Shown here: piece by piece, positions 25,101 to 52,422 of the stretch | How the letters are laid out: every line of letters starts with the position of its first letter | Position numbering within the stretch: the stretch's first letter is position 1 | NCBI GenBank assembly: GCA_937892925.1 | Contig: CALBHX010000116.1 | Span: forward strand, 35,748 to 99,747 | DNA from: an uncultured Lentisphaeraceae bacterium | GTDB taxonomy: Bacteria > Verrucomicrobiota > Kiritimatiellia > RFP12 > DVOR01 | Reading direction: 5' to 3' | DNA: 64,000 nt | Program-made: the position numbers and the translations under genes | Notes under the pieces: generated by a model | The model's input: the letters and a program-made list of their open reading frames with translations, nothing else | Database searches by the model: none | Told to the model about the DNA's origin: nothing

Positions 25101-25367
25101 GAGCGCTACTGTGCATCCGCCCAGCATGACTGCCGCTAGATTTAGCCCGGCTACTGTCTGCCCCGGCGGAAGCCAACGCCCAATCCCGCCGAGCAATGCC
25201 ATCGCTAACGGGTGCTGTACGTGGCCGCTTGACCAGACGCCAAGCGTTTGCGCCAACCAGTCAGCATCCGCTCCCGGCCATACCCAGGGAGCTCGCAGGA
25301 TAAACAGAATGATGAACGGCAGGCTCCATGGAAGCAGTGAAAGAGCCCAGGCAAAAGCGCGTTTCAT
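22104..25367 (-). CDS. large polytopic membrane protein (about 450-aa multi-TM N-domain, DUF2723/PMT-like) fused to a C-terminal TPR array of about 600 aa
   Basis: Many hydrophobic segments in the first 450 aa, then a long series of TPR-like repeats (A..Y..A....G....A). Start assigned to ATG at 25367 (MKRAFAWALSLL); the ORF-track start at 25442 is an extension. Confidence 0.6.
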   Translation of the reverse strand: MKRAFAWALSLLPWSLPFIILFILRAPWVWPGADADWLAQTLGVWSSGHVQHPLAMALLGGIGRWLPPGQTVAGLNLAAVMLGGCTVALLCAAVRTFLKAATQDPRSLPALEPAMRAASLTTAFALLLTPAFLRAGTHVQAQSVDLFLMAGSWLFTLRALASFSPNRVLAASFFLGLTLPEAPTVGVLAIAAWLVLGISAWRSDERFGVKSLIGRWLFPFGLGVTGTFAAAVLLGMAPGGAETVRAAASGFARNWLAGVLSIQQGSWLLISFFGVLPFVLALLLGRDIGNNRRSPAVLFTYVTLVLLVILAVFPIPVSPYVLLDKQWPMANAAVWAAMLAFAAGLTAGGGVLLALGNRTAEGAEESPTVRRLGQWLAWGTVPVLLLMLVLGGSWASIRAWQADTAAAALPKRVADAFLDCAKGGETWLLGEPSLDALLALRLRERQIPVIHFSLAQDHRPDAMIRLRQALMNSGYFAAKPELREQLIRSLDLGMVPFIQDWLRQDAEAGSRFVTIGLPDLWFTGNRYPLPERLWYRGAIDRTHLHKAITTHSTPVYFPALPPQAVLDEAAAPLRLLAERVRRQISFVANNTAFFLADAGQLEQAWEQFAAVYAYDSENISALFNLLELIHGGLHPEKKRWCEGEIRNLLKRLSGKKYQLWTLSQTFGYIRSPQLISALAGQWAMSGQTGAALSGLDLTLAMLDDNTREAFQGAIAALYNVTPGKRQEAVARYRRLLDHAKDDAQRLAYLRSLIRALLQEKNYKEAFQLLEQAEALGGKEALAYDRALCHAAAGETIQAQAALKRCLKSEPKHVEALAMLATLQLEAGDLQTLRTSTLQRLSAAAGTDDHYCVQIIRAQLAEREGRLANARAAYLRAHALNPDVAALRDTILSLDIRLNDRVSAERHARDFLYQDRLHPLSNYVMGSLALQTNDLSRAARYLKAATDPQIEHPLPEAFNDLAEVYRRQGDWNAALATARQAYRLAPNLSVAYETAAAALIAMGRLSEAENELNTADAMAKELRKGQPRDPRLQLTRALLNFHQGKLEQARALLAEVQARVQELDDASRAELKRLTTQMQQDGGNHGTL

Positions 25368-25371
25368 GGCA

Positions 25372-26034
25372 TTACTCCGGTTGGTCGGCGGCGGGTATTT
25401 CAGGTTCGGGAGGCCGGTGCCAATCGCCCTCGCCGCAGGCAAAGTCTGTTTCTACAGCTCGAATGTCGTCATTGGTGTCGGGCAGGCCGTCCGGTCCGCA
25501 GGAAAAAAGCACCGGCGCTTCAAATGGAGAGGTGGGCATCCGATAAACGTAAGGGGTTCCCCACGGATCTTTATAGGCCCAATTGATATAAGGCCCCTTC
25601 CATCCCGGCACGTGGTAGTTTTTAGCCAGGGCAAAAAGCCCCAGCCGCTGCTGTGGCCAGGAGCCGGTATGTATGCGGAACAGCGCCATGGCTTTGGCCA
25701 CGGTGGCCACGCTTCGGCGTGCCCGAAGCTGGTTCAGCGGTGTGGTCTTCTGCAGGATGGTTTTTGACGGGTTGCGGATGGCCAGCGTCAGACCCGCCCC
25801 GACAAACAGGAGAAGCATCAGCAGTCCAACCACCGTTTTGGGGGACTTTAATACCGCTGCGTCCAGTCGCAACCCAAGCTGCAGCCGTTCCTCTTCAGCT
25901 TTACGGCGGATGGTTTCAATTTTACGCTTGGCTTCACGCCGTTCTTCGGCGCTCCGCCAGCGCACCCCACGGACGCTTCCTTCCTTTCGGACGAGGCGAA
26001 GGGGTTTGGGCGGTTTGGAGAGATGCACGGCCAT
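25372..26034 (-). CDS. bitopic membrane protein with C-terminal GspG-type pseudopilin domain but no prepilin leader
   Basis: The C-terminus (GPYINWAYKDPWGTPYVYRMP...SCGPDGLPDTNDDI) matches the T2SS GspG globular domain. The N-terminus is a 60-aa charged/coiled segment plus one TM (VVGLLMLLLFVGAGLTLAI). There is no G/FTLIE cleavage-methylation motif. ATG at 26034. Confidence 0.6.
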   Translation of the reverse strand: MAVHLSKPPKPLRLVRKEGSVRGVRWRSAEERREAKRKIETIRRKAEEERLQLGLRLDAAVLKSPKTVVGLLMLLLFVGAGLTLAIRNPSKTILQKTTPLNQLRARRSVATVAKAMALFRIHTGSWPQQRLGLFALAKNYHVPGWKGPYINWAYKDPWGTPYVYRMPTSPFEAPVLFSCGPDGLPDTNDDIRAVETDFACGEGDWHRPPEPEIPAADQPE

Positions 26035-26047
26035 GCGTTTTATTTCC

Positions 26048-27064
26048 TTAAAAAAGCATGTCCTGCTGTCCGGCAGGGCGGAGACCCAATCGTTCAAAGG
26101 TTTTAGGCAAGGCCACACGTCCTTTCGGCGTTCGATCAAGATAACCTTCCTGAATCAGGTAAGGTTCATAGACCTCCTCTACGGTGTCTGCCTCTTCTCC
26201 CACGGCTACGGCAATGGTGGCAACGCCTACGGGCCCTCCGCCGAACTTTCCTGCAATCGCTTCCAGAATCCGCAGATCCATCTCGTCCAACCCCTGCGGA
26301 TCAATCTCCAATAATGCGAGTGCGCGGTCGGCAATCTCAGCGGTGATGCGGTTGTCTGCGCGTACTTGCGCATAATCGCGTACACGCCGGAGCAGATTGT
26401 TCGCAATACGCGGGGTGCCGCGGCTGCGCATGGCAATTTCCAGCGCGCCCGCTTCATCAATTCCAACATTCAGTTTTCCTGCACTGCGCATGATGATGCG
26501 GGAGAGCTCTTCGTGAGAGTAGTAATCCAGCCGATTCTGTAGCCCGAAACGTGAACGCAGGGGCGCAGAAATCAAACCGCTGCGGGTCGTGGCGCCTACC
26601 AGGGTGAATCGGGGCAGCTCGAGGCGGACGCTCCGGGCATTGGGCCCTTGGTCAATCATGATATCGATGACGAAGTCTTCCATTGCCGAATACAGATATT
26701 CTTCAACGGTTCGCTGCATTCGATGGATTTCGTCAATAAATACAATGTCTCCTGGTTCCAAGGATGTTAAAAGCCCGGCCAGATCCGAGGGCTTGTCGAT
26801 AACCGGCCCGCTAGTGGCTTTTACATGCACGCCCATTGCCTCGCCAAGGATGTAGGCCAGCGTGGTCTTACCCAGCCCCGGAGGTCCAGAAAGCAGTACG
26901 TGATCCAGCTGCTCCCCGCGCCCCTGCGCTGCTTCAACGGCCAACATCAGGCGGTCACGCACTTTTTGCTGCCCCAGAAAGTCTGCAAACCGGGTTGGGC
27001 GTAGCCGGTTGTCAAACGAGGCGTTCCGTTGATTCATTTCTTCCGAAGGTCTGGGCGTTTCCAT
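26048..27064 (-). CDS. ruvB: Holliday junction branch-migration ATPase RuvB
   Basis: [11 protein letters not shown] Walker A, DEIHR motif, 338 aa. Confidence 0.95.
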
Positions 27065-27345
27065 ACTCCTATATTATAGCGAAAAGGGTTTGCCCCGCAC
27101 GGGATTTTTACCGTGGTTTCTCACCGGGGCCCTGGGATTGTTTTATAGATCCGCCCCGGCTTCGAGGCGAGCCTGGGGCAGGTTGGCTCCGGATTCGGGG
27201 TGAGTCTATCTTTCCCTTGGGCGATGCGGTTTGGCGCTCTGCTCAGATTGTCAATGAGGGAAGAGGGGCTTTTGGGGAAGGAAAAAGAAAAGGGGAAGCC
27301 GGCTTTTCCCTCGCAAAGATGCACGAAATGGAAGCGGGAACGGTG

Positions 27346-28491
27346 TTATTTGCCGCGGATGTATTGGACGCGCAGGGGTGCGCGTAATCGGCGCAAGGTG
27401 GCTTCCTGAAGAGCTTCCCAGGCTTCAAAGGTGGCGGGCGCGGCTTTGCTCCATCCGGCGCCCCAGTAGTAGGTGAGGGGGGCGTTGGCTGATTGGGGGA
27501 ACGTGGCAATGAGATGATCCACGGCTCCAGCTCGTTTGGCCTCCTGCGGGGGAAGCGGAAGGTACATGGTTTCGGCGGCCGGGGTGGGGAAGAGGGCGCC
27601 GATGAAAAGCGTACCCTGACCTTTTCCGGGCGGGTCTGTGGGGTCGGCATAAGCCAGGCGGTTTGGGGTGCATCGACTGGCTCCGTGGTCATGCCGAACG
27701 ATGCCGACTACAGGCGTGAAGCCATGCCCCAGACCTTCGTAGGAAACGGTGGTGCGGTTGAAGGGCGTGTGGGCGTCAAGCGAGATGAGGCGGCGTTCAA
27801 TAATCTGTGTTCCGTTAAACGTGCGCGGAGGGTAAGTGAGGCGTACGGTAAAACGCAGAGGTCCATTGTCGAGGATGTCGCAGGCGGCGTACGCCCAGGG
27901 GTAGAGTAGGTGGCCGTCCTGGAGCAGACCGGTGGCGCCGGCGCCGAGCGTGGGGCCGACTTTGTAGCAGTCAAGGCCGTTTCCATGGTCTTTGTGGTAG
28001 GTAATGCCGCGCTTGAGCTCATCGTAGTAGCGCTTTTCTACAACGGGTTGGGTGGTGGCGCGCTTGCACCAGACATCATAGCCAAAGGCGCGTTCGCCAG
28101 ACTTCTGGAGCGCAGGGCCATAGGCGCGGAAGGCCACAAGGTCATTTTCCCAGGCCACATCGTCTACACGTTCTGGATAGACGCGGCCGCAGGCGATCGT
28201 GTTGTAGGAAAAGGGCATCTGGGTGGGGGTGAGAATATAGCGGGCTTCCCCGTTGGCCGGAAGGCTGACGGGGAAGAGGAGCTTGCCGTCGTAGGTACGC
28301 TGGCTGGGGAGTAATTCACCGGTTTCGGTATGGACGAGCCAATGTCCTTCGGGCACACCGGGCACCTCCACGATTTCTCGGCTGCGCGGTTCATTGAGCG
28401 GGTTTGCCACATGGACGGTGTGAGGCTGCACTTTGGCTGCGGCAAGGCAGGTGAAAAAGACGGAGAAAAGGAGTGTCAGAGAAGATTTCAT
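27346..28491 (-). CDS. secreted DUF4861-like protein (glycan-utilisation-associated family)
   Basis: Signal peptide (LLFSVFFTCLAAAKV). 381 aa. The family assignment is from recall of the overall sequence character and is tentative. Confidence 0.35.
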   Translation of the reverse strand: MKSSLTLLFSVFFTCLAAAKVQPHTVHVANPLNEPRSREIVEVPGVPEGHWLVHTETGELLPSQRTYDGKLLFPVSLPANGEARYILTPTQMPFSYNTIACGRVYPERVDDVAWENDLVAFRAYGPALQKSGERAFGYDVWCKRATTQPVVEKRYYDELKRGITYHKDHGNGLDCYKVGPTLGAGATGLLQDGHLLYPWAYAACDILDNGPLRFTVRLTYPPRTFNGTQIIERRLISLDAHTPFNRTTVSYEGLGHGFTPVVGIVRHDHGASRCTPNRLAYADPTDPPGKGQGTLFIGALFPTPAAETMYLPLPPQEAKRAGAVDHLIATFPQSANAPLTYYWGAGWSKAAPATFEAWEALQEATLRRLRAPLRVQYIRGK

Positions 28492-28520
28492 CGTATGTTT
28501 CCGAGTGGAGGCATGGCGGC

Positions 28521-29606
28521 TCAGGGGTGGATCGCTGCGGCATCTTTAAGGATGTCGGCCAATTGTTGTTTGATTACGCGCATGGAAAGGTGCTGCTCAA
28601 AAAAGGTGCGAGCCACGGGGCGCAGCGCGGTGAGTGCTTCGCGCTTGTTCAGCCAAGGTTTGACGGCTTCGGCTAGAGCCTGCGGGTCGCCCGGCGGAAT
28701 AAAGGTGATGGCGGGGCAGGTTTTGGCTTCTGGCGGATAACCGGTGCAGAACTCGTTGATGACGGGGCGGCAGCAGGCCATGGCTTCATAGACTTTGTTG
28801 CCGATCACGCGAGAGGCTTTCTCCGTGGTGCCGAAAACGCCAAGAACGATGTCGGCTGAGCGGATCACGCGTGGAACATCAACGTAGGGCACTTTGTTCA
28901 GAAAGGTGATGTTGGTGATACCCTTGGCTTTGGCTTCGGTAGCGGCCTTGTAGGCGCCCCAACCGAGGAAGTCCCAGTGAATGTTCAGCCCCTGCGTCAG
29001 GCGGGCGGCTTCAACAATCGTTTCTGTGCCGTGCAGGGGGAGGTAAGCTCCGTGATAGAGGATGCGGAGCGGAGCGGCAGGGTCGTGTGGCGGGTCTTCT
29101 CCTTCGGCGGCGGGCTTGAATACCTGTTCATCGGTTCCTGTTAGCAGAACGCGAAGTTTCTCGCGCGGCACGGACATGTGTTGGTGAAAAAAGTCGGCAT
29201 GGCAGGAGGTGTCGCAGAGGAGAAGATCAACAGCGTTGAAGAGCTGGGTTTCCCAAGCAAGAAGCCGCTTGGCACGCCGTTCATCAGCAGACCACTTTTG
29301 CTGTTCGAGCACCTTTTTGTCCCAGGCGGAGATCATAGGGTCGAAGAGCACGGGGATGCCGCGGCGGTGAGCCCACCGGCAGGCGGCGGCGGCATCGCGC
29401 TGGCGCGCCACGGGCACCCAGACCACATCGGGGCGGACGTCTTTCGGTCCGCGCAGCGCGAACTCCCAATCACCCAGTGCGCAGCAGGCTTTGATTTGAA
29501 AGAATCGGACATCCCACCCAAGCTCCTTGAACAGGGCTATGTAGACGCGGTTGCGCGAATACCCGGGGTCGAAACGTCCCCACCAAAGAACGGTTTTCTG
29601 TGCCAT
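28521..29606 (-). CDS. glycosyltransferase (GT-B fold, GT4-like)
   Basis: C-terminal region with the E..A.G.P motif context (VYEAMACCRPVI) typical of GT4. ATG at 29606. Confidence 0.55.
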   Translation of the reverse strand: MAQKTVLWWGRFDPGYSRNRVYIALFKELGWDVRFFQIKACCALGDWEFALRGPKDVRPDVVWVPVARQRDAAAACRWAHRRGIPVLFDPMISAWDKKVLEQQKWSADERRAKRLLAWETQLFNAVDLLLCDTSCHADFFHQHMSVPREKLRVLLTGTDEQVFKPAAEGEDPPHDPAAPLRILYHGAYLPLHGTETIVEAARLTQGLNIHWDFLGWGAYKAATEAKAKGITNITFLNKVPYVDVPRVIRSADIVLGVFGTTEKASRVIGNKVYEAMACCRPVINEFCTGYPPEAKTCPAITFIPPGDPQALAEAVKPWLNKREALTALRPVARTFFEQHLSMRVIKQQLADILKDAAAIHP

Positions 29607-29708
29607 GGTCAAACTCTCTCCTCTTTGCGGATTGAAGCCGGAGGGCTTCCGGCGGGTGGGGCTCCGCATTTCCCGACCCTTTTGGCTGGCGAGCTGCAGT
29701 ACGGCACG

Positions 29709-30737
29709 TCAGGGCAGGACTTCTAGCAGATCCAACATGTAGAGCAAGGTCATCAGGCGCACATCCAGCGTATGCCCGGCACGGTAGGATTTTACTGTGC
29801 CGACGAAGCGCCCCCGATCGATTAGGGCAATGGCGGCTACGAGGTCGAGCATTGTGCGGTGCCAGACAGGCTCACAGTTCTTCCCGTTATCGAGATTGAA
29901 ATCCGGGCGCGGCGTGGTGATGAATCCCCGCTTTCCATGGATGAGGATATTGTCTTTGGTGTAGCCCATGTTACGGACATCGGCAAAGAGTTTCCCGATG
30001 GTTTTGGACATGAGATATTGCGATTGCGTGGCGTTGGTTCGCGCTCCAGCACCGCGAATAAAGGTTTCCGGCGTCAAATCTACCTGAATACGCTGCTGCC
30101 CGACGACCGTATCCCATGCGATGGCAACGTCCAAATGCAGGCGCCGGTCGTCCCCCTCGGCGGGGAGCAGGGTAACAAAGTCTCCGCGTCCGCCCCCGAT
30201 GGTAACGGGCTCTTTGACGGTGACATACCGCGCGGGGCGGCCCGTTGGGACAATTCTGGCGCGTTGGACGGCTTCGACTAGATCTAGGCTTGAACGGTCA
30301 AACAGCGGTGGGTCGCCTCCGGCGATGGACAGGCGGACGTTGTCTACGCCAAGTCCTAGCCGAAGCGCCACAATATGCTCCACCATACGCAGATAATTAT
30401 GAGGCGACCCGGCGCGCAAAACAATGTTGCGGGCACTTGTCCACACATTTCGAACAGAGACTTTGACATCGAGTTGTTCGGCTAGATCCGTTCGATGAAT
30501 CCACCAACCGGGGATAGCGGAAGGCCCAAATTGAAGCACAGGGTGACGTTTTCGTTCAAAGGTGCCAACGCCTGTTGCACTGGCCTCTCCTGCGAGTGTG
30601 GTCTCTTCCGCTCCAAATGGCAGACGATTGTCCGTCCGGCACGTTTCTGTAACAGGCTGTGCTTCAAAGGCTTCATAGGCGGCGCGCACCCGAGTTTCTT
30701 CGCCTGCAACGAGGCGGCCGATAAGAGCTTCTTTCAT
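29709..30737 (-). CDS. LpxC-like UDP-3-O-acyl-GlcNAc deacetylase homolog with a roughly 45-aa N-terminal extension
   Basis: Aligns to LpxC blocks: ATGVG....RTDL, MVEHIVAL.LGLGVDN, WHRTMLD, RAGHTLD. Some canonical residues are changed (GLHTG to GTFER; GDL to AAI). Confidence 0.6.
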   Translation of the reverse strand: MKEALIGRLVAGEETRVRAAYEAFEAQPVTETCRTDNRLPFGAEETTLAGEASATGVGTFERKRHPVLQFGPSAIPGWWIHRTDLAEQLDVKVSVRNVWTSARNIVLRAGSPHNYLRMVEHIVALRLGLGVDNVRLSIAGGDPPLFDRSSLDLVEAVQRARIVPTGRPARYVTVKEPVTIGGGRGDFVTLLPAEGDDRRLHLDVAIAWDTVVGQQRIQVDLTPETFIRGAGARTNATQSQYLMSKTIGKLFADVRNMGYTKDNILIHGKRGFITTPRPDFNLDNGKNCEPVWHRTMLDLVAAIALIDRGRFVGTVKSYRAGHTLDVRLMTLLYMLDLLEVLP

Positions 30738-30776
30738 GCGTTCTCCGGTTATTGCCGCGGATAGGGCGGCATGGGG

Positions 30777-32429
30777 CTAATATTTCAGGCGGCTGGCTCC
30801 CAGATATTCCCGCAAGATGGAGTTTGTCGGCACATCGGCCATGGGCATGGCGGCAAAGTTCTGCAGAAAACAGGAGAGCCGGCGCGCATGGACGAACTCC
30901 GGGTGATAGGGTTTGATCTGGTTCAGCAATGGCCCGGCCAAGGTTTTCAAGACTGGAATTTCATAATCCAGGGCAGTATTGAACACCGCATCTGCGCAAT
31001 GCTGGAAGGGAAAGATCCACCGCTCTTCGCCAGCTCGGACACTGGGCCATAACCGGAGGGTTTCACGGGGGCTCCGCCCCCGGAATTGCCCATCGCGTAC
31101 CATTCGACGCAGCAGTCGATTGTCAATGGTGGAAATTCGGTTGTTCCGGTCGATGGCCAGCTGTGTAAGGGCGTTCACGTAGATTAGGAATTTCTCCTGA
31201 CGGGGAATATCCGGCGTAAGATCCGGATTGAGCGCGTGGATGCCTTCAATCACGAGAACGCCGCGCTGGGGATCCAGCGCCAGTGTTTCATCGGAGTCAT
31301 ATCCTTCCCGTTGTTTGAAGTCGAACTTCCGCAGTGCGATGGTTTCTCCCCTTAACAGGCGGATTAGGTCAAGATTCAGGCGCGGCCGATCAACGGCATC
31401 CAGGTGTTCATAGTCCAGATTGCCCGCTGCATCGCGCGGATTACGGGCGTCTCCAACAAAATAATTGTCGGTGGAAAGCAACGCCGGCTTCAGCCCCAAC
31501 ACACGCAGGTGTGTACAAAGGCGCATGGCGAAGGTCGTCTTCCCGGCAGAGCTGGGGCCGGCCACCAACACCACGTGCGGCCGCGGCACGCGAGAGGCAA
31601 TCTGATCGGCAAAGGATGCCAGACGGCGTTCGTGCAGGGCTTCAACGGTGTTGATTACATCGGCCACTGAGCCATCGGCAATGGCGGCGTTCAATTCTCC
31701 TGCGTTTCGGATGCCGATGATTTCGCCCCATCGCAAATGCTCGGCATAAACTTCAAAAAGGAAGTCGTAAGGCGGCATGGGGTCGAGGGCTTTCGGCGTT
31801 TTGACGCCGGGGAATTCCAGTACAAACCCTTCGCGCAGAGGCACAATATCGAAGAGCTCAAGTGCCCCGGCGTGAGTGGCCATGATTCCCTGCGGCAAAT
31901 CATAGAACGCACCACAGACAACGAGCGCCAACGCGGGCGGGTTACGGTGCGCCAGCAGATTGACCTTGTCTTCCTGCCCTGCGGCACGGAAACGTTCCAA
32001 AATCTCGGCATAGGGGAAAAGCCGATGCGCGATGGGGGTGTCGGCGGCGATGAGTCTGGCTACGCCTGCCCGAAGCGCAGCCACCTGCGCCTCCCGCTCT
32101 GTTGGCGGAACGTCCCATGTCCAATAGAGCGCGTTGTGCCCGAAACTTTGACGAATCCGGCAATCAATACGCGGGAAAGCTTCATGAAGGACTTTGGCCA
32201 CCAGAAAACAGAGCGTTCGCCGATAGACCTGCCATCCTTCGCTGTCGGCCAGTGTCAGCGGGCGAATCTGGGCATCGTACAACATGGGTGCATCCAGCGG
32301 CACCACATCGTTGTTCATGAGCGCTGCCAATACAGGCAACCCGTCAACGAACGCGGGAAGCACCGCGCTCAACGGGGTGCCGCGTTCGGCCTGAAGGCAT
32401 TCTCCGGTGTCCAGTTCGAGGGTGATCAT
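30777..32429 (-). CDS. uridine-kinase/phosphoribulokinase-family P-loop kinase with roughly 250-aa N-terminal ThrRS-N/TGS-like domain
   Basis: Walker A GPSSAGKTTFA, and STDNYF, VLVIEGIHAL and RRMVRDGQFRGRS blocks match Udk. The extra N-terminal domain is of unknown role. Confidence 0.7.
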   Translation of the reverse strand: MITLELDTGECLQAERGTPLSAVLPAFVDGLPVLAALMNNDVVPLDAPMLYDAQIRPLTLADSEGWQVYRRTLCFLVAKVLHEAFPRIDCRIRQSFGHNALYWTWDVPPTEREAQVAALRAGVARLIAADTPIAHRLFPYAEILERFRAAGQEDKVNLLAHRNPPALALVVCGAFYDLPQGIMATHAGALELFDIVPLREGFVLEFPGVKTPKALDPMPPYDFLFEVYAEHLRWGEIIGIRNAGELNAAIADGSVADVINTVEALHERRLASFADQIASRVPRPHVVLVAGPSSAGKTTFAMRLCTHLRVLGLKPALLSTDNYFVGDARNPRDAAGNLDYEHLDAVDRPRLNLDLIRLLRGETIALRKFDFKQREGYDSDETLALDPQRGVLVIEGIHALNPDLTPDIPRQEKFLIYVNALTQLAIDRNNRISTIDNRLLRRMVRDGQFRGRSPRETLRLWPSVRAGEERWIFPFQHCADAVFNTALDYEIPVLKTLAGPLLNQIKPYHPEFVHARRLSCFLQNFAAMPMADVPTNSILREYLGASRLKY

Positions 32430-32443
32430 GCGCCAACTGCCGT

Positions 32444-32827
32444 TTAGTTGGTGAGATCGTCTTCTGTGTTCAGGTTACCATCGGCTCCAGCGGAGCGGAT
32501 CGTGTATTTTTTCCCTTCCACTTTATAATCAAAGGGAAGCCCCCAAGCATCATTCAGCGCACCGGATTTGAGGAGCGGCTCATCGTCATTGATGCCAACC
32601 GTCAGATCCTCAAGCGTCTTGGGCAGACGGCCGGTTTCCATCTTATAGATTTGAATGGCCTGCTCGATTGCACCAATGGAGGTGAGGGTTGCGGCTTTAC
32701 GCGATTTATCGCCTGCGCCGCCAAAGTTGACCACCACCACCGAGCCTAGAATGCCCAGGATAGCAATGACGAGAAGCAGCTCTACGAGGGTAAAGCCTGC
32801 GCGGCGGGAATGATTGGAGAAGTTCAT
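32444..32827 (-). CDS. gspG: type II secretion/type IV pilus major pseudopilin GspG
   Basis: Canonical prepilin leader RRAGFTLVELLLVIAILGIL with Glu+5, plus the GspG C-domain (DAWGLPFDY...SAGADG). Confidence 0.85.
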   Translation of the reverse strand: MNFSNHSRRAGFTLVELLLVIAILGILGSVVVVNFGGAGDKSRKAATLTSIGAIEQAIQIYKMETGRLPKTLEDLTVGINDDEPLLKSGALNDAWGLPFDYKVEGKKYTIRSAGADGNLNTEDDLTN

Positions 32828-32849
32828 GCGTTTATTTCCTTTCCGGGGA

Positions 32850-34088
32850 TTATTGACCCATAGCCGAAGTTGCGGAGAAGACGGCCGAGAGAATGGCTAT
32901 CGCCACAAAGCCGACAATAGCCGCCACAAAGAGAATCAGCAGCGGCTCCAGCGCCGTGGTGAAGATCTTGATGTTGCGATCCAGCTCGGCCTCATAACGG
33001 CGGCCGATGTGCCCCAACGCGGCGGGCAGGTTGCCCGTCTGTTCCCCCAATGCCATCATGTCTGTCATCATGCGGGGGAAGACGCCGCTCTGAGCTAATG
33101 GCCCAGAGATAGTTGTGCCGTCGGTTACACGTTCGCGCGCAGTTTTCAATGCGGCGCCGATTACGGCATTGCCGCATGTTTCTTCCGAGATGCGCAGGGC
33201 ATTGAGCACATTGACGCCGTTGGCCAGGAGCGTTTGCATGGTATAAGCTAGGGAAGCATAGGCTCCGCTGGCGATGAGACCCTTGATCAACGGAACGCGC
33301 AGCTTGAAGGCATCCCACTGCGTCCGCCCGGCACCGTTAATCCACTTGCGGAACAGGACGATGCCGACAACAATTCCTACAGCATAGAAGACGCCATATT
33401 TCAAAAGTCCGTCACTCATCCCGATGAGCATTCGCGTGGGTAATGGAAGCTCGCGCCCCATACTGCTGAAAAGGGTGGTGAACTGCGGCACAATTTTGAC
33501 CATGGCGAACACAACGGCTCCAACGCCCATGGCCAGAACAATCGCCGGATACGTCAGCGCCGAGACAATTTTGCTCTTCATGTTCTGATTGCGCTCGTAG
33601 TGTTCCGAAAGACGATGGAGCACTTCCACCATGGCTCCGGAGGCTTCGCCTGCGCGCACCATATTCCCGTAAATCGGCGGGAAACTGCGCGGATGCGCAT
33701 CCACAGCGTCTGAAAAGGCTTCGCCTCGCAGAATTCGATCGCGCAGGTCTGCCGAGACGGCACAAATAGGGTCGGAAGGTTCCCCCTGGTTGGCCAGCGC
33801 ATTCAGCGCTGCGCCCAGCGTCATTCCTGCTTCGAGCAAATCTGCCAGCTCAGAGGAAAAGAGAAGCACTTCGGCAGGCTTCATTCGCGCTGTGCTTGGA
33901 GCCCGGGCGGTTTTGGTTTTTCCGGGCACAGCCTGACTTCCTGCCGTATTCCCGCTTTCTGTTATGGAGAGCGGCATCAATCCCTGCGCCTTCAGAGCGG
34001 CGAGAGCACCCCGGCGGTCGGCAGCGTCTAATGCTCCCGACACCTTGGCTTTTGCCCGATTCAATGCAACATAATTGAAACTCGCCAT
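32850..34088 (-). CDS. gspF: type II secretion/type IV pilus inner-membrane platform protein GspF/PilC
   Basis: 412 aa with two GspF repeats and three TM segments; family-typical sequence throughout. Confidence 0.85.
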   Translation of the reverse strand: MASFNYVALNRAKAKVSGALDAADRRGALAALKAQGLMPLSITESGNTAGSQAVPGKTKTARAPSTARMKPAEVLLFSSELADLLEAGMTLGAALNALANQGEPSDPICAVSADLRDRILRGEAFSDAVDAHPRSFPPIYGNMVRAGEASGAMVEVLHRLSEHYERNQNMKSKIVSALTYPAIVLAMGVGAVVFAMVKIVPQFTTLFSSMGRELPLPTRMLIGMSDGLLKYGVFYAVGIVVGIVLFRKWINGAGRTQWDAFKLRVPLIKGLIASGAYASLAYTMQTLLANGVNVLNALRISEETCGNAVIGAALKTARERVTDGTTISGPLAQSGVFPRMMTDMMALGEQTGNLPAALGHIGRRYEAELDRNIKIFTTALEPLLILFVAAIVGFVAIAILSAVFSATSAMGQ

Positions 34089-34206
34089 AACACCTATAGG
34101 TTATCATAATGGCACTTACCCTGCATGGCTTTGCACGGGTTCGTGCTTGCAGCAGAACGCGCCCGTGTGCAACTCGCGCCGGGGAGCCGGTAAACGCGGG
34201 GCGGTT

Positions 34207-35214
34207 TTACTCCAAAGTCGGGGCGGGTTCATTTGGTGTTGGGTGCGGGCGGTTGTTCGGGGTGCGCAGCCGGCGCAGAAACGAGACGGCGGATGCAAGT
34301 GCTTCCGCGCGGGCTTTAGGCTGCCCGGGCACGGTGATAAAAAGATGGACGCTTCCGGGGATAACCTGCCGTTGGATGGGGAGGCCGCGTTGGGTGCATA
34401 CGGCGGTGAAGTGTTCACCCTGATCGGCGAGGATATCCCGCTCGGCGGCTACCAGGAGTGTAGGCGGCAGATGTTCCGGCGGCACGCGTGCAGGTGAGAC
34501 TAGGGCATCGCTGCTCCGGACGTTTTCGGGTGCGTAGGCTCGGTTGAAGGCTTCCATCAGGGAAGCATCAAGTCCAAATCCGCGGGCATACTTTGTCCAG
34601 GAGGCAGTGCGGCTGGTGATGGCATCGACCACAGGGTAAAAAAGCAAAAGGCCGTCAAGCGCAGTCGTTCGGGCTAGCGCGAGCGCCAGATTCCCGCCTG
34701 CAGAATCGCCTGCTGCGATCCATTGGCCGGGGAAACATTGCTGGGCTTTGGCCAATGCGTCCCGGGCATCTTCTATGGCGGCGGGATAGGGGTGTTCGGG
34801 AGCCAGGCGATAGGCCAGAGAGAGAACGCGCTGCCCGGAGGCTTTAGCTAGGGCGGCACAGAAGGCATCACAGGAATCCAGCCCGCCGATTACCCAGCCG
34901 CCGCCATGGAGATAGAGTACGGTTTGCGTCGGTTCGGGCTTGTACCGCGGGGTATACACGCGATAGGGAAGGGTACGCCCGGGCACCTGGAACGTGCCGT
35001 TAGAGATCGCCAGAGCATCGTCAGAAGAATATGGAGAAGCCTTTTTGAGCCGCTCTTTCCGAATGGCCTGAAGTGCTTCAGGCTGGCCGGCGCAGGCCTG
35101 TTCAATGGCTTTCGCCTGACGGCTTTGGATCTCGGTTGGCAGGCTTGAAAGAAAGGTTTGGGCTTCTGGAGAAAGGAGCCCGGAAGCAAAGATAAGCGGA
35201 AGGATCGGGTTCAT
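34207..35214 (-). CDS. secreted alpha/beta-hydrolase fold-3 esterase/lipase (HSL family)
   Basis: HGGGW oxyanion motif and GDSAGG nucleophile elbow. Start placed at ATG 35214 (MNPILPLIF, signal peptide) to avoid overlap with the polA stop. Confidence 0.75.
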   Translation of the reverse strand: MNPILPLIFASGLLSPEAQTFLSSLPTEIQSRQAKAIEQACAGQPEALQAIRKERLKKASPYSSDDALAISNGTFQVPGRTLPYRVYTPRYKPEPTQTVLYLHGGGWVIGGLDSCDAFCAALAKASGQRVLSLAYRLAPEHPYPAAIEDARDALAKAQQCFPGQWIAAGDSAGGNLALALARTTALDGLLLFYPVVDAITSRTASWTKYARGFGLDASLMEAFNRAYAPENVRSSDALVSPARVPPEHLPPTLLVAAERDILADQGEHFTAVCTQRGLPIQRQVIPGSVHLFITVPGQPKARAEALASAVSFLRRLRTPNNRPHPTPNEPAPTLE

Positions 35215-35234
35215 GTGCGGGAATTGAAACAGAA

Positions 35235-37982
35235 TTAATGAGCGGAGAGCCAATCGGCGCCGACTCCGAGTGAGACGCGCAGCGGGACGGCCAGTTGGGC
35301 AACGCTTTCCATGGCTTCGCGGACAAGGGGACGGACGGCCTCGACTTCGTCATCGGGGACATCGAAGAGGAGCTCGTCATGGATTTGGAGGATCATTTGT
35401 GTGCGGAGGTGCTGCTCATTCAGCCGCCGAGCGATGGTAACCATGGCGAATTTAATGATGTCGGCGGCGGTGCCCTGAATGGGCATATTGATGGCGATTC
35501 GTTCGGCGGCATTGCGGGTGGTGGCATTGCGGGAGCGGATCTCGGGCACGGCACGGCGCCGCCCAAAAAGGGTCTTGGCAAAGCCGCTTTCACGGGCGGC
35601 TTCGATGGAGTGCTCCATGTAGGCTTTAATGGCGGGATATTGCGCAAAGTAGGCATCAATCAAATCTTGCGCATCGCGCCGCGGGATGCGCAGGCGGGAA
35701 GCGAGGCCGAAGGCAGAAATGCCGTAGATAATGCCAAAGTTTACCATCTTACAATGGCTGCGTTGTTGAGGGGTTACCTCTGAGAGGGGGGTGCCGTAGA
35801 CCACGCTGGCGGTCTGCGCGTGGATATCTTCACCGTGCTGGAAGGCTGCAATCATACGCTCATCCCCACTCATGGAGGCCATGATGCGCAACTCCACCTG
35901 CGAATAGTCGGCGGAGAGCAGCTGCCACCCAGGAGCACGGGCAACAAAGGCGGCGCGGATCCGTTGGCCGCGCTCGGAGCGGACGGGGATATTTTGAAGG
36001 TTTGGGTCGGAGGATGAGAGCCGCCCCGTGTCAGTGAGGGTCTGGTTGAAGGTGGTATGAATTCGGCCATCTCTCGGGTCAATGTGCTCGGGCAGCCGGT
36101 CAACGTACGTGTTTTTCAGTTTGACGCATGCCCGCCAATCAAGCAGCAGATCTACTACAGGGTGGCGATCGCGCAGTTTGAGCAGAAGCTCTTCGTTTGT
36201 TGGAAATTGTCCGCGCGGGGTTCGTTTGACGGAGGGTTCAAGCTGAAGCTGCCCAAAGAGAAACTCGCCCATCTGCTTGGGGGAGGCGAGGTTGACGCCA
36301 GCGCCGGTGTAATCGCGGATGGCTAACTCCAGGCGGAGAATTTCGCCTTCAAGTTCGGCACGAAAGCGGCGGAGCGCGGCGGGATCGATGCGCACTCCGG
36401 CCTGCTCCATGTCGAGCAGCACTCCGGCCAAAGGAGTTTCACAGGTTTCAAGAAGGGGTAGAAGCGCTGCCTCTTTGAGCTTTGGAAGTAGGATGTCATC
36501 CAGGCGGAGCGCCATGTCGGCGGATTCGGCGGCATAGTCCAGGACGGTTTCCGGCGGCAAATCGGCGAGCGATCGGGTTTTGTCGGTGCCCAGAAGCGTC
36601 GTGAGCGCAATGGGCGTGTAATCCAGAAAAACGTTGGCGAGATAGCCGAGATCGTGGCGATCGATGGCGGCTAGGAGATAGTGTGCTAAGAGGGTGTCGC
36701 GAAGAGGGCCTTGTAAATCCAGCCCAATCCGGCGGAGCACGGTTCGGTCGTATTTGAGATCGTGACCAACTTTGAGGATGGTGGGAGAGGCCAAGACCGG
36801 TTCAAAGGTATGCAGCGCTTCACGCTGCCCGGCTTCATCTGCGGGGAGCGGGATATACCACGCCTGTCCGCCGGCAATGGCGAAGGCACACCCAATGGCA
36901 CGAGGATGCTTTGGATGAAGTCCGGAGGCCTGCATGTGGAAGGCTATACGGGGCTCGGCAAGGAGCTGCTGCACCAGAGCTTCACGCTCGGCAGGGGTTT
37001 GAACTAGGCGGTATTCATGTGGCTGAGTGGTCAGTGTTCGGCGGGCGGGTGTAGGGGCTGCGGTTTCGGAACGAAAGGCTTCTCCGCCGCCGAAGAGCTG
37101 AGTTTGGGCGGCACTGGCCGCAATACCCAGGCGGTTGGCTATGGTATTAAGCTCATATTTACGAAGCACGGGCGCCAGACGGGCGAGTTCTGGCGGGCGG
37201 ACGCGCAGGGCGTCGAGAGGGAGATCGATCGGGACATTACGCACGATCGTTACTAAAAATTTACTGAGCTTTACATCTTCGATATGGGCACGGACGGCTT
37301 CGCCGGTTTTTCCGGAGAGTTCGGCTGCATGGGCAAGGAGATTTTCTACCGAACCGAATTGGTGAAGCAGCCGTTTGGCGGTTTTGGGCCCCACACCGGG
37401 AATGCCGGGCACATTGTCGCTGGTATCGCCCGCAAGCGCCAGATAGTCGATTAGTTGGGCGGGCGTTTGGACACCCCATTGGGCGCAGATGGCATCTGCT
37501 GAGAGAGGCGCCTGTTCGCCCGGGCGGAAGATGGCAATATTCGGGGCGGCCAATTGCCCCAAATCTTTATCAGGCGAGGCAATGACTACCTGAGCCCCTT
37601 CGGCAGCGGCACGGCTGGCCAGTGTCCCGAGCACGTCATCCGCTTCGAATCCATCTGCCCGTACCACCGGAATGCCCCACGCGGCGGCCAGCTCTTCGGC
37701 TTGTCCGATGGCGGCAGCGATATCTTCCGGCATTTTTTCCCGTTGAGCTTTGTAGGGTGGAAACTTCTGATGGCGAAAGGTCGGCGTGAGACTCTCGGCT
37801 GCAATGGCCAGATGCGTGGGGGAGAAGGTTCGCAGGATTTGCTCGATAGTGGAAGCGAACAGTGCCAACGAGGAGGTGTTCAGGCCTGTAGCGGTTCGGC
37901 GGGGCTTCTTAAGAAAGACAAAATACCCGCGATAGAGGATGGGCATCAGGTCGATGAGAAAGAAACGGGCATCTGCGAGCAT
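35235..37982 (-). CDS. polA: DNA polymerase I
   Basis: 5'-3' exonuclease, 3'-5' exonuclease and polymerase domains (RRAAKMVNFGIIYG, QIHDELLF). Start at ATG MLADARFF (37982); the ORF-track start uses an upstream TTG. Confidence 0.95.
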   Translation of the reverse strand: MLADARFFLIDLMPILYRGYFVFLKKPRRTATGLNTSSLALFASTIEQILRTFSPTHLAIAAESLTPTFRHQKFPPYKAQREKMPEDIAAAIGQAEELAAAWGIPVVRADGFEADDVLGTLASRAAAEGAQVVIASPDKDLGQLAAPNIAIFRPGEQAPLSADAICAQWGVQTPAQLIDYLALAGDTSDNVPGIPGVGPKTAKRLLHQFGSVENLLAHAAELSGKTGEAVRAHIEDVKLSKFLVTIVRNVPIDLPLDALRVRPPELARLAPVLRKYELNTIANRLGIAASAAQTQLFGGGEAFRSETAAPTPARRTLTTQPHEYRLVQTPAEREALVQQLLAEPRIAFHMQASGLHPKHPRAIGCAFAIAGGQAWYIPLPADEAGQREALHTFEPVLASPTILKVGHDLKYDRTVLRRIGLDLQGPLRDTLLAHYLLAAIDRHDLGYLANVFLDYTPIALTTLLGTDKTRSLADLPPETVLDYAAESADMALRLDDILLPKLKEAALLPLLETCETPLAGVLLDMEQAGVRIDPAALRRFRAELEGEILRLELAIRDYTGAGVNLASPKQMGEFLFGQLQLEPSVKRTPRGQFPTNEELLLKLRDRHPVVDLLLDWRACVKLKNTYVDRLPEHIDPRDGRIHTTFNQTLTDTGRLSSSDPNLQNIPVRSERGQRIRAAFVARAPGWQLLSADYSQVELRIMASMSGDERMIAAFQHGEDIHAQTASVVYGTPLSEVTPQQRSHCKMVNFGIIYGISAFGLASRLRIPRRDAQDLIDAYFAQYPAIKAYMEHSIEAARESGFAKTLFGRRRAVPEIRSRNATTRNAAERIAINMPIQGTAADIIKFAMVTIARRLNEQHLRTQMILQIHDELLFDVPDDEVEAVRPLVREAMESVAQLAVPLRVSLGVGADWLSAH

Positions 37983-37998
37983 GGGAAGGTCTCCGGGA

Positions 37999-39002: not shown

Positions 39003-39015
39003 GGATGTCCTAGGG

Positions 39016-42126: not shown

Positions 42127-42446
42127 GATATGATCCTTTGGTGATATAAAGCATAGCAAAAGCCCCCCGCAGGAACCACAGACTTCTTTTTGGAGAGGGG
42201 CTCTTTCTGGGGGAAGGGAGGGTGTTTTTTGCGCCGTACCTGCCTAAAAGGGATTTTCGAGGGAAGGCAGGCACACGGTTCGTGTTATTGAAGCGGCAGA
42301 ACAGATGGACGCCTTTTTGTTTATGTTTTCACCATTCTGGATTTGGGGGCGTCTCGTCTCGATTTTGCCTTGAACTCGGGACGCGTTGATTTTTGGTATG
42401 ATGAGCGCGTATTTTTCGCGAGATTTTAAGGTAAAGGAAGGTTGCG

Positions 42447-52420: not shown

Positions 52421-52422
52421 TT

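What the first reader, a model, noticed from the sequence alone, without database searches (positions are those of the whole stretch)
28521..34088. Orphan gspF-gspG module co-directional with a TGS-domain uridine-kinase-family kinase, an LpxC-like deacetylase and a GT4 glycosyltransferase
- GspF and a canonical major pseudopilin are present, but the obligate partner ATPase (GspE/PilB) and the secretin are absent from the flanks. Upstream is an esterase and polA.
- Instead they are followed at 14-40-nt spacing by a P-loop nucleoside-kinase-family protein with an extra 250-aa N-domain, a divergent LpxC homolog and a glycosyltransferase, then a secreted DUF4861-like protein.
- This arrangement is not a described T2SS/T4P operon. 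It could represent a pseudopilin modification (glycosylation or lipidation) pathway, or a glycolipid pathway that has captured platform proteins.
Basis: partly seen in the sequence, partly recalled or inferred. Interest (0 to 1): 0.65.

Follow-up and report, generated by a model that had tools for sequence, protein, structure and literature searches.

The report
Split secretion genes in housekeeping operon
Two genes of a type II secretion machine were cut off from the rest of their ancestral operon in one clade of gut bacteria and now head a tight, clade-conserved operon with unrelated housekeeping genes (a nucleoside kinase, an LpxC-type deacetylase and a sugar transferase); this looks like genome reshuffling rather than a new pathway.

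Summary
On the minus strand lie gspF, gspG, a 550-aa uridine-kinase-family protein, an LpxC homologue, a GT4 glycosyltransferase and a DUF4861 protein. No gspE or secretin occurs anywhere in the 64 kb.

The functional reading is not supported. The organism is a gut Kiritimatiellia ("Ca. Spyradenecus"-like).
- **Ancestral state.** In 32 more distant species gspF sits directly after gspE. Fourteen of these show the full gspE-F-G-H-I-J-K-L-M-D operon.
- **Independent genes.** In those relatives the kinase (rlmL–kinase–hisI) and lpxC (murC-like–thioredoxin–lpxC) lie at separate loci.
- **Intermediate.** Sister lineages keep gspFGHIJ without gspE.
- **Derived state.** One monophyletic clade (25 species representatives plus this window) has gspF–gspG–kinase–lpxC, usually followed by GT4. 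DUF4861 is sporadic.

Inside that clade the block is a real operon.
- Flanks differ in at least nine ways.
- Junctions are mostly under 40 nt and carry SD-like motifs. lpxC and GT4 overlap in eight species.
- A promoter with an extended −10 ends 7–12 nt before the gspF ATG in all 27 block-clade loci that could be scored.

Best reading: a chimeric housekeeping operon left by T2SS operon break-up. Dispersed T2SS loci are known in Legionella and Acinetobacter. Low interest. One side note: the LpxC belongs to a distinct PVC subfamily with an altered zinc motif.

The parts
34098..34126 (-). Promoter-like element just upstream of gspF: a -35-like ATGCAG (34126..34121), a 17-nt spacer containing TG (34106-34105), and a -10 TAACCT (34103..34098). 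The -10 ends 9 nt before the gspF ATG, which implies a leaderless or nearly leaderless transcript.
   Evidence: Read from the sequence. All 27 block-clade loci have TAnnnT ending 7-12 nt before the ATG, and 25 of 27 have it as TGnTAnnnT. Many also have TTGCnn 17 nt upstream, although the upstream genes differ. The window copy is one of the weaker matches. The generic scan did not flag it.
32850..34088 (-). gspF: T2SS inner-membrane platform protein, 412 aa. First gene of the operon.
   Evidence: PF00482 twice, E 2.6e-54. TIGR02120 scores 345 bits, below its 424 cutoff. It is 57-63% identical to GspF genes that sit inside complete gspE-F-G-H-I-J-K-L-M-D operons.
32444..32827 (-). gspG: major pseudopilin, 127 aa, with prepilin motif G|FTLVE and a C-terminal DG..N.EDD motif.
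   Evidence: N_methyl plus T2SSG. The best PDB match is the PulG pseudopilus 5wda, E 6.5e-10. It is 50-58% identical to the gspG of canonical operons. The gap to gspF is 22 nt, with an AAAGGAA SD-like motif.
30777..32429 (-). Nucleoside (uridine-kinase-family) kinase, 550 aa. It has a roughly 280-aa N-terminal region resembling the ThrRS N-terminus and a C-terminal P-loop PRK/Udk domain.
   Evidence: PF00485 at 41 bits against a cutoff of 22. The udk equivalog models score far below cutoff. PDB matches are Udk for residues 281-454 and ThrRS for residues 34-165. At least 7958 homologues, those listed mostly about 550 aa; some sources name them 'nucleoside kinase'. Orthologues in other Kiritimatiellia lie in rlmL-kinase-hisI. 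The gap after gspG is 14 nt.
29709..30737 (-). LpxC-family zinc deacetylase, 342 aa, of a distinct PVC (Kiritimatiellia/Lentisphaerota) subfamily.
   Evidence: PF03331 at E 1.1e-31 over positions 2-266 of 268. The lpxC equivalog models score below cutoff. The AF2 model (pLDDT 77) has LpxC structures as all 50 best PDB matches, target-normalised TM about 0.7. E120, H121, R233, H293, D298 and H322 are invariant, and T234 nearly so, across the subfamily and canonical LpxC. The subfamily has WHRxxLD where canonical LpxC has HKxLD. It is about 60% identical across the class and lies elsewhere in relatives.
28521..29669 (-). GT4 (GT-B) glycosyltransferase of unknown specificity. The ORF is 382 aa. 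The probable start is at 29606, giving 361 aa.
   Evidence: Glyco_trans_1_4 and Glycos_transf_1 score above their cutoffs. Only weak, sub-cutoff NCBIfam hits (WcaI, stp2 and similar). PDB hits are marginal, with PimB' at E 0.002. It is present after lpxC in 22 of 24 informative block loci and overlaps lpxC by 4 nt in 8 of them.
27346..28491 (-). Probably secreted DUF4861/BT_3233-family protein (polysaccharide utilisation). A species-specific addition at the 3' end of the operon.
   Evidence: PF16153 at E 2e-75. NF058564 at 332 bits against a cutoff of 320. It follows the block only in the window, L019, L024 and L029. The N-terminus looks like a signal peptide by eye.
27293..27310 (-). Terminator-like hairpin followed by a T-run, 36 nt after the DUF4861 stop. 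Probable end of the transcription unit in this genome.
   Evidence: It is followed by a 281-nt gap before ruvB.

Best explanation
This is a lineage-specific polycistronic operon made of functionally independent housekeeping genes. It was created when the ancestral type II secretion operon broke up.

**Origin (shown by comparison).**
- The ancestor of Kiritimatiellia carried gspE-F-G-H-I-J-K-L-M-D as one operon.
- The nucleoside kinase and lpxC lay at separate loci.
- In the gut lineage leading to 'Ca. Spyradenecus' and relatives the T2SS operon was fragmented. gspE was lost from the 5' side first; sister lineages keep gspFGHIJ. gspIJ ended up behind ptsI-brkB.
- In a single ancestor the gspF-gspG fragment became joined to kinase-lpxC. 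GT4 follows in nearly all descendants. A DUF4861 gene was added in a few, including this genome.

**Transcription (inferred from sequence signals).**
- The unit is read from a sigma-70-type promoter with an extended -10 that ends about 9 nt before the gspF ATG, so gspF is nearly leaderless.
- Each internal gene has its own Shine-Dalgarno-like motif after a short spacer, under 40 nt at most junctions.
- In this genome the unit ends at a hairpin after the DUF4861 gene.

**Function (inferred from family membership).**
- GspF and GspG work in a T2SS whose ATPase, secretin and minor pseudopilins are encoded elsewhere.
- The kinase acts in nucleoside or nucleotide salvage.
- The LpxC-type enzyme deacetylates UDP-3-O-acyl-GlcNAc for lipid A.
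- The GT4 builds an envelope glycan.
- Nothing indicates that the enzymes act on the pseudopilin.
For: 1. **Ancestral state.** 32 of 80 GspF loci have gspE immediately upstream. 14 show the whole E-to-D operon where the contig allows.
2. **Intermediates.** L017/L045 and L043 have gspFGHIJ without gspE. gspI-gspJ is a separate fragment after kdsA-lptCAB-hpf-hprK-ptsHI-brkB (L099-L102). In L018 that fragment directly precedes gspFG-kinase-lpxC.
3. **Independent loci.** The kinase and lpxC orthologues lie elsewhere in relatives. In assembly GCA_023269675.1 the kinase, lpxC and gspE-gspF lie on three different contigs (L009, L013, L056). The lpxC of L015 (sister lineage) and the block of L011 share the downstream neighbours NirDL-HTH and PDDEXK_1.
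4. **Single origin.** All block-bearing loci form one clade in a GspF NJ tree.
5. **Operon signals.**
   - At least 9 upstream and 8 downstream contexts surround a constant block.
   - Junctions are 6-40 nt at most, with GGAG/AAGGA motifs. lpxC and GT4 overlap by 4 nt in 8 loci.
   - The promoter motif is conserved in 27 of 27 loci.
   - A similar extended -10 just before the ATG is seen in some non-block lineages that lost the upstream gspE (L045, L091, L081). gspF starts at most a few dozen nt after the gspE stop, 1-10 nt in five of seven loci read, where gspE is present.
7. **Nothing else.** No defence-system or RNA-family hits.
Against: - The block has stayed intact through many flank rearrangements across proteins only 69-81% identical. 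This argues for selection on co-transcription and leaves room for a functional or regulatory link.
- gspE, gspD and gspK-M were not located for any genome of the block clade. A complete T2SS is therefore inferred, not shown.
- The LpxC homologue fails the curated lpxC equivalog cutoffs. It has a one-residue insertion in the zinc-binding HKxxD motif. I could not show that it is the only LpxC in these genomes.
- The kinase substrate and the GT4 specificity are unknown.
- No transcript data were available.
Confidence: 0.7

Rival explanations
1. Envelope co-regulation operon. The genes keep separate biochemical roles, but co-transcription is selected. It would tie production of the T2SS platform and pseudopilin to lipid A/LPS synthesis (LpxC, GT4) and UDP-sugar precursor supply (uridine-type kinase).
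For: - The block is kept as a unit through at least 9 different flank contexts.
- Its promoter travels with it.
- lpxC and GT4 show translational-coupling-like overlaps.
- In L018 the block lies next to the kdsA-lptCAB cluster.
Against: - Other Kiritimatiellia manage without the linkage.
- GT4 is missing from the block in L018/L041 and L029.
- Operons of unrelated genes persist simply because downstream genes depend on the upstream promoter.
Confidence: 0.18
2. A non-lipid-A glycoconjugate pathway. The GT4 would transfer GlcNAc to a lipid or small-molecule acceptor, and the divergent LpxC-like enzyme would deacetylate it. This would be analogous to GT4-plus-deacetylase pairs such as MshA/MshB or PIG-A/PIG-L. 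The kinase might supply or phosphorylate a precursor.
For: - The LpxC homologue belongs to a separate subfamily: 21 representatives at E<=1e-30, then a gap to canonical LpxC.
- It has an altered zinc motif (WHRxxLD) and altered residues after the conserved ART.
- It scores far below the lpxC equivalog cutoffs.
- lpxC and GT4 overlap in 8 species.
Against: - The LpxC homologue occurs without the GT4 or the kinase next to it across the rest of the class, and in L018 and L029.
- All catalytic residues of LpxC are retained.
- Kdo and Lpt genes show that the clade makes LPS and needs an LpxC.
- No second LpxC was seen in 1.8 Mb of fetched Kiritimatiellia DNA. This is weak evidence.
- The MshB and PIG-L deacetylases belong to a different fold family (from my own knowledge).
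Confidence: 0.08
3. One reading: a pseudopilin modification pathway, in which the kinase, deacetylase and GT4 glycosylate or lipidate GspG, or a glycolipid pathway that recruited GspF/GspG as its export platform.
For: Only the physical linkage and its conservation within one clade.
Against: - GspF and GspG are plain orthologues of the genes in complete T2SS operons, which lack these enzymes.
- The enzymes are orthologues of stand-alone genes.
- GspG shows no added domain or unusual feature.
- The block has a single recent origin.
Confidence: 0.04

Closest known systems
Dispersed type II secretion gene sets of Legionella pneumophila (lsp, five loci) and Acinetobacter (gsp, five loci)
   Same: - A T2SS is encoded by fragments at unlinked loci.
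- gspF is separated from gspE and gspD.
- Some fragments are co-transcribed with unrelated genes.
- The fragment structure is conserved within the genus while the flanks vary (PMC6617341, PMC4713064).
   Different: - Here the fragment is gspF-gspG alone. In Legionella lspF is monocistronic and lspG heads lspGHIJK.
- Here it heads an operon with a kinase, lpxC and a GT4.
- The remaining T2SS genes of this clade were not found, so completeness is inferred.
Canonical gspE-F-G-H-I-J-K-L-M-D operon of other Kiritimatiellia (for example L016/L052, GCA_035353175.1)
   Same: GspF is 61% and GspG 58% identical, in the same order and orientation. This is the evident ancestor of the fragment.
   Different: - gspE and gspH to gspD are absent here.
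- A promoter sits where gspE used to end.
- kinase-lpxC-GT4 follow where gspH would be.
LpxC (UDP-3-O-acyl-N-acetylglucosamine deacetylase, PF03331/TIGR00325)
   Same: - Same fold: all 50 best PDB fold matches are LpxC structures.
- Full-length Pfam match.
- Retained equivalents of E78, H79, T191, H238, D242 and H265 (E. coli numbering, from my own knowledge; alignment).
   Different: - 25-32% identical to the canonical LpxC representatives aligned.
- Below the equivalog cutoffs (52 against 187 bits).
- A roughly 40-aa N-terminal extension.
- One extra residue between the His and Asp zinc ligands (HRxxLD).
- Different residues after the conserved ART.
- The GD that follows the zinc motif is replaced.
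Uridine kinase (Udk) and the widespread ~550-aa 'nucleoside kinase' architecture
   Same: P-loop PRK/Udk domain. The full-length architecture is shared by the closest homologues listed, out of thousands.
   Different: - An extra N-terminal ~280 aa resembles the ThrRS N-terminal region. By eye the HxxxH editing motif of ThrRS is not evident (inference from reading the sequence).
- Below the udk equivalog cutoffs.
- I know of no experimental characterisation, and a literature search found none.

Membership tests
Type II secretion system (T2SS) core components | GspF: polytopic inner-membrane protein with two T2SSF domains | tested here: met
   PF00482 in two stretches, E 2.6e-54, plus T2SSF_N in precomputed hits. 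TIGR02120 aligns end to end, but at 345 bits it is below its 424-bit cutoff.
Type II secretion system (T2SS) core components | GspG: prepilin leader with G|F..LxE, a hydrophobic helix and a GspG globular domain | tested here: met
   N_methyl plus T2SSG. The motif RRAG|FTLVE was read from the sequence. The best solved match is the PulG pseudopilus. TIGR01710 scores 62.7 against a cutoff of 88.85, so it is below cutoff.
Type II secretion system (T2SS) core components | Orthology to the gspF/gspG of a complete gsp operon, rather than T4P pilC/pilA | tested here: met
   The nearest homologues outside the clade (57-63% identity) sit in gspE-F-G-H-I-J-K-L-M-D operons that include a secretin.
Type II secretion system (T2SS) core components | The same genome also encodes the GspE ATPase, the GspD secretin, minor pseudopilins and a prepilin peptidase | not testable with these tools
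   None occur in the 64-kb window or in the 7.5 kb to its left. Whole genomes could not be searched. Only gspI/gspJ fragments from the clade were found.
LpxC (lipid A deacetylase) | LpxC two-domain fold | tested here: met
   AF2 model with pLDDT 77 and pTM 0.82. All 50 best Foldseek PDB matches are LpxC structures, E down to 6e-17, target-normalised TM 0.66-0.74. Two segments (100-112 and 235-273) have low confidence.
LpxC (lipid A deacetylase) | Catalytic residues: Glu-His pair, Thr of the ART motif, and the second His (GH) | tested here: met
   E120-H121, R233 and H322 are invariant, and T234 and G321 nearly so, across the subfamily and canonical sequences.
LpxC (lipid A deacetylase) | Zinc-binding HKxxD motif with canonical spacing | tested here: inconclusive
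   His and Asp are both invariant, but they are spaced H-R-x-x-L-D, one residue longer than HKxLD, throughout the subfamily. No coordinates were available to check the geometry.
LpxC (lipid A deacetylase) | Score above the curated equivalog cutoff (TIGR00325, NF009666/7) | tested here: not met
   52.4 bits against 187. 66 against 465. 39.5 against 423. It does pass the Pfam family cutoff, 110.7 against 27.
LpxC (lipid A deacetylase) | Sole LpxC of a genome that has the rest of the lipid A/LPS pathway | not testable with these tools
   kdsA, lptC/A/B-like genes occur in clade relatives. No second LpxC was found in 1.8 Mb of fetched loci, which is weak evidence. Whole genomes are not searchable.
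Uridine kinase / PRK family | P-loop kinase domain of the PRK/Udk family | tested here: met
   PF00485 at 41.4 bits against a cutoff of 22, residues 287-485. It aligns to Thermus Udk 3w8r, including the GxxxxGKT motif.
Uridine kinase / PRK family | Equivalog-level match to udk, implying the uridine/cytidine substrate | tested here: not met
   NF004018 scores 63.5 against 180. TIGR00235 scores 59.4 against 220.
TGS-domain proteins | A recognisable TGS domain at the N-terminus | tested here: inconclusive
   No Pfam hit in residues 1-280, even at E<=10. However, residues 34-165 match the N-terminal region of ThrRS in the PDB (6vu9 at E 3e-8, 1tje at E 6.5e-4).
GT4 glycosyltransferases | GT-B fold with a Glycos_transf_1-type C-terminal domain | tested here: met
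   PF13692 at 48.2 against 27. PF00534 at 39 against 26.4. No specific subfamily reaches its cutoff.
DUF4861 / BT_3233 family | Full-length match above the curated cutoff | tested here: met
   PF16153 at E 2e-75. NF058564 at 332 bits against 320.

The most novel reading that the evidence does not exclude
The persistence of gspF-gspG-kinase-lpxC-GT4 as one promoter-driven unit in a gut PVC clade might reflect a real functional coupling. One version: the distinct LpxC-like subfamily (altered zinc motif), the GT4 and the kinase make an envelope glycolipid other than canonical lipid A. Its production, or its export to the surface, would be tied to the T2SS platform and pseudopilus.
Probability: 0.1. 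Interest if true: 0.6.

Novelty: new member of a known kind. Interest (0 to 1): 0.22.

Why it matters
Mostly as a caution. Tight, conserved, co-directional linkage of a secretion-platform fragment with envelope enzymes looks like a new pathway. Here comparative synteny shows it is what remained after an ancestral T2SS operon fell apart.

It adds a documented case of T2SS gene dispersal in the PVC group, with stepwise intermediates. It also shows how a detached gene acquires its own leaderless-type promoter.

Two leads may be worth a specialist's time.
- A PVC-specific LpxC subfamily has a one-residue insertion in the zinc motif. This could matter for the spectrum of LpxC inhibitors and for lipid A biology in gut Kiritimatiellia.
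- The ~550-aa ThrRS-N-terminal-like/Udk kinase architecture is very widespread and, as far as I know, uncharacterised.

Tried and rejected
- **Akkermansia origin.** I first guessed this from GC content and the mucin-degrading genes. Homologue names and GTDB records point instead to Kiritimatiellia / 'Ca. Spyradenecus'.
- **gspE or secretin nearby.** I looked in and just outside the window: Pfam on all large ORFs, tblastn with Kiritimatiellia Gsp proteins, and a 7.5-kb extension to the left. All were negative. The extension to the right failed because the chosen ORF is not on record.
- **Locating gspE/gspD of the block clade.** This was not possible.
- **Literature.** Searches on Kiritimatiellia lpxC/LPS and on a TGS-uridine kinase gave nothing usable. 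The K. glycovorans paper only states that LPS genes and a T2SS exist.
- **Defence system.** Rejected: no PADLOC hits.
- **RNA elements or riboswitches in the block.** None found.
- **Generic promoter scan.** It found nothing on the minus strand. The conserved promoter only emerged by comparing orthologous upstream regions.
- **Second, canonical LpxC.** None in the 1.8 Mb of fetched loci. This sample is too small to be conclusive.
- **GT4 specificity.** It could not be narrowed. There are no orthologues outside the block in the DNA in hand, and only marginal PDB and NCBIfam hits.

Full report
**1. Observation**

The six genes are present as described, all on the minus strand.
- gspF lies at 34088..32850 and has two T2SSF domains, E 2.6e-54.
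- gspG lies at 32827..32444. It has N_methyl plus T2SSG domains and the leader RRAG|FTLVE. Its best solved homologue is the PulG pseudopilus.
- A 550-aa kinase lies at 32429..30777. Its C-terminal half is a PRK/Udk P-loop domain (PF00485, 41 bits against a cutoff of 22). Residues 34-165 resemble the N-terminal region of threonyl-tRNA synthetase. Pfam does not call a TGS domain there, even at E<=10.
- An LpxC homologue lies at 30737..29709 (PF03331, E 1.1e-31, full model length).
- A GT4 glycosyltransferase lies at 29669..28521. Its real start is probably 29606, as in the gene calls and orthologues.
- A DUF4861/BT_3233-family protein lies at 28491..27346, above the NCBIfam cutoff.

The esterase and polA lie upstream. 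No T2SSE ATPase or secretin is found in any large ORF of the 64 kb. tblastn with Kiritimatiellia Gsp proteins finds none. Nor is one present in the 7.5 kb beyond the left edge.

The whole stretch 42159..19605 is one co-directional run of housekeeping genes: polA, ruvB, murD and others. Co-directionality alone therefore carries little weight.

**2. Organism**

Close homologues are labelled Kiritimatiellia, Kiritimatiellae or 'Candidatus Spyradenecus'. They come from animal and human gut metagenomes. NCBI files the genus under Lentisphaerota. The window also encodes a sialidase, a sulfatase, a heparinase II/III and a GH63-like enzyme. This fits a gut glycan forager.

**3. Comparative synteny, the decisive evidence**

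I scanned one genome per GTDB species with a GspF alignment, which returned 80 loci. I mapped the block proteins and a full set of Kiritimatiellia Gsp proteins onto them. Three states appear.

(a) *Canonical operon.* GspF is 57-63% identical to the window's.
- 32 loci have gspE immediately upstream of gspF.
- 14 of them show the full gspE-F-G-H-I-J-K-L-M-D operon ending in a secretin, where the contig is long enough.
- L016 also shows this with Pfam labels, as do metagenome loci L104-L125.

(b) *Intermediate.* GspF is 67% identical. L017/L045 and L043 have gspF-G-H-I-J with no gspE upstream.

(c) *Block.* GspF is 69-81% identical.
- 25 species representatives plus the window carry gspF-gspG-kinase-lpxC.
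- GT4 follows in 22 of the 24 informative loci. It is absent in L018/L041 and L029.
- DUF4861 follows only in the window, L019, L024 and L029.

In a GspF NJ tree the block-bearing loci form a single clade. The only other member is a 2.6-kb contig that ends after gspG.

The other genes are independent outside that clade.
- Kinase orthologues (53-55% identical) lie in rlmL-kinase-hisI.
- lpxC orthologues (about 60% identical) lie after a murC-like ligase and a thioredoxin, or alone.
- In assembly GCA_023269675.1 the kinase (L009), lpxC (L013) and gspE-gspF (L056) lie on three different contigs.
- The lpxC of the sister lineage (L015) and the block of L011 share the downstream neighbours NirDL-HTH and PDDEXK_1. 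This suggests that lpxC stayed in place and the other genes moved in.

A metagenome scan with GspJ found gspI-gspJ as another isolated fragment. It sits behind kdsA-lptC/A/B-hpf-hprK-ptsH-ptsI-brkB and is followed by dnaK or other genes (L099-L102). In L018, on the earliest-diverging branch of the block clade, that fragment directly precedes gspF-gspG-kinase-lpxC. The T2SS operon of this lineage has therefore been broken into small pieces, and gspFG is one of them.

**4. The block is a real operon within its clade**

- Clustering of the flanking ORFs shows at least nine different upstream and eight different downstream contexts around an unchanged gene order.
- Junctions inside the block are 6-40 nt at most junctions. 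They are preceded by GGAG/AAGGA-type Shine-Dalgarno-like motifs. lpxC and GT4 overlap by 4 nt in eight species.
- gspF has no such motif. It is preceded by a conserved sigma-70-type promoter.
  - All 27 block loci with enough upstream sequence have TAnnnT ending 7-12 nt before the ATG.
  - 25 of 27 have it as an extended -10, TGnTAnnnT.
  - Many have TTGCnn 17 nt further upstream.
  - The sequences further upstream are unrelated.
- In the window the elements are ATGCAG (34126..34121), TG (34106-34105) and TAACCT (34103..34098), with the ATG at 34088. The geometry implies a transcript with almost no leader.
- Some non-block lineages that lost the upstream gspE (L045, L091, L081) show a similar extended -10 just before the ATG. 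Where gspE is present, gspF starts at most a few dozen nt after its stop codon, 1-10 nt in five of the seven loci read.
- In this genome a hairpin with a T-run (27310..27293) follows the DUF4861 gene. A 281-nt gap then precedes ruvB.
- No Rfam family and no defence-system model matches.

All of this is sequence inference. I had no transcript data.

**5. The LpxC homologue**

- It is the most conserved protein of the block: 77-86% identical within the clade and about 60% across the class.
- An AlphaFold model (pLDDT 77, pTM 0.82) has LpxC structures as all 50 of its best PDB matches.
- An alignment with canonical LpxC representatives keeps the Glu-His pair (E120, H121), the Arg of the ART motif (R233), the zinc His and Asp (H293, D298) and the second catalytic His (H322) invariant; T234 is nearly so.
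- The protein belongs to a separate small subfamily.
  - Only 21 representatives at E<=1e-30 exist among 1.84 billion. One is labelled Lentisphaerota. A gap then separates them from ordinary LpxC.
  - The subfamily has a roughly 40-aa N-terminal extension.
  - It has one extra residue between the zinc His and Asp (WHRxxLD against HKxLD).
  - It has a different segment after ART.
  - It scores far below the curated lpxC equivalog cutoffs.
- Relatives of the clade carry kdsA and lptC/A/B-like genes, so they make LPS and need an LpxC.
- I found no second LpxC in the 1.8 Mb of Kiritimatiellia DNA fetched. That sample is too small to settle single-copy status.
- My reading is that this is the lineage's lipid A deacetylase, at roughly 70% confidence.

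**6. The kinase and the GT4**

- The kinase belongs to a very large family, with at least 7958 hits at E<=1e-5. The members listed share the ~550-aa architecture, and some sources name them 'nucleoside kinase'. It fails the udk equivalog cutoffs. Its substrate is unknown.
- The GT4 passes the generic GT4 Pfam models. It reaches no specific subfamily and has only marginal PDB hits.
- Neither protein shows any feature linking it to pilins.

**7. Interpretation**

The simplest account is as follows. The ancestral T2SS operon broke up. The gspFG fragment gained its own promoter. In one ancestor it fused with kinase-lpxC, later joined by GT4 and occasionally DUF4861, into a polycistronic unit. The downstream genes now depend on the gspF promoter, which by itself explains why the unit is hard to break.

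Functional T2SSs with scattered genes are established.
- Acinetobacter has five loci (PMC4713064).

The outcome is mixed. The block is conserved in one clade, but its genes are independently arranged in all other relatives. The enzymes are class-wide stand-alone genes. I see no support for pseudopilin modification or for a captured platform.

Three things remain open.
- Whether co-transcription has regulatory value.
- Whether the LpxC subfamily has the canonical substrate.
- Where gspE and gspD are in these genomes.

**8. Verdict**

- Observation: confirmed.
- Interpretation: partly supported on structure and not supported on function.
- Novelty: a further example of known phenomena, namely dispersed T2SS genes and a mixed housekeeping operon.
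- Interest: low (0.22).
- Most novel reading still allowed: a functional link between the LpxC-like/GT4/kinase trio and the T2SS fragment. I put this at about 10%.

Noticed in passing
window 29709-30737 (-); alignments A1 and A4: The LpxC homologue represents a distinct subfamily in Kiritimatiellia and Lentisphaerota. It has a one-residue insertion in the zinc motif (WHRxxLD instead of HKxLD), a roughly 40-aa N-terminal extension and a changed segment after the ART motif. Only 21 representatives at E<=1e-30 exist among 1.84 billion proteins.
   Followed up: partly
window 25372-26034 (-), just after ruvB; also L007:12268-12888 and L009:12338-13021: A 220-aa protein has a GspG-like periplasmic domain but no prepilin leader. 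Instead it has a roughly 65-aa basic N-terminal cytoplasmic segment and one TM helix. The L009 homologue is 32% identical over about 190 aa; it and the L007 homologue lie two genes downstream of the kinase (kinase-hisI-this gene). It may be a membrane-anchored pseudopilin-like protein.
   Followed up: partly
L020:11288-12445: One species of the block clade carries three tandem gspG-like copies between gspF and the kinase.
   Followed up: no
L024, L092, L094, L097, L078, L055, L066, L093 (record titles): Several GTDB genome records titled Agathobacter rectalis, Faecalibacterium sp., Barnesiella intestinihominis, Gemmiger sp. or Akkermansia carry contigs with Kiritimatiellia-type gspF. L024 even has the whole block. 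These are probably mis-binned or mislabelled contigs.
   Followed up: no
window 42160-42446, upstream of thiC (42447-43763, +): The 287-nt region upstream of the gene I take to be thiC gives no TPP-riboswitch hit, nor any other Rfam hit, even at E<=1.
   Followed up: partly
window 39016-42159, 38397-39002 and 37999-38400 (-): Three co-directional genes upstream of polA (1047, 201 and 133 aa) have no Pfam or NCBIfam match. The trio is present in the near-identical (probably same-species) contigs fetched.
   Followed up: no
window 22104-25442 (-): A 1112-aa protein lies between the GspG-domain protein and murD. By eye, its N-terminal half has many hydrophobic, transmembrane-like stretches. Its C-terminal half carries TPR repeats.
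   Followed up: no
L099-L102 and L018:721-9875: Conserved cluster kdsA-lptC/A/B-hpf-hprK-ptsH-ptsI-brkB, followed by an isolated gspI-gspJ pair. This is another fragment of the broken T2SS operon attached to an unrelated housekeeping cluster.
   Followed up: partly
window 52344-52499 (-): tRNA-Pro(GGG) and tRNA-Val(GAC) lie in tandem. They are the only RNA genes detected in the window.
   Followed up: yes
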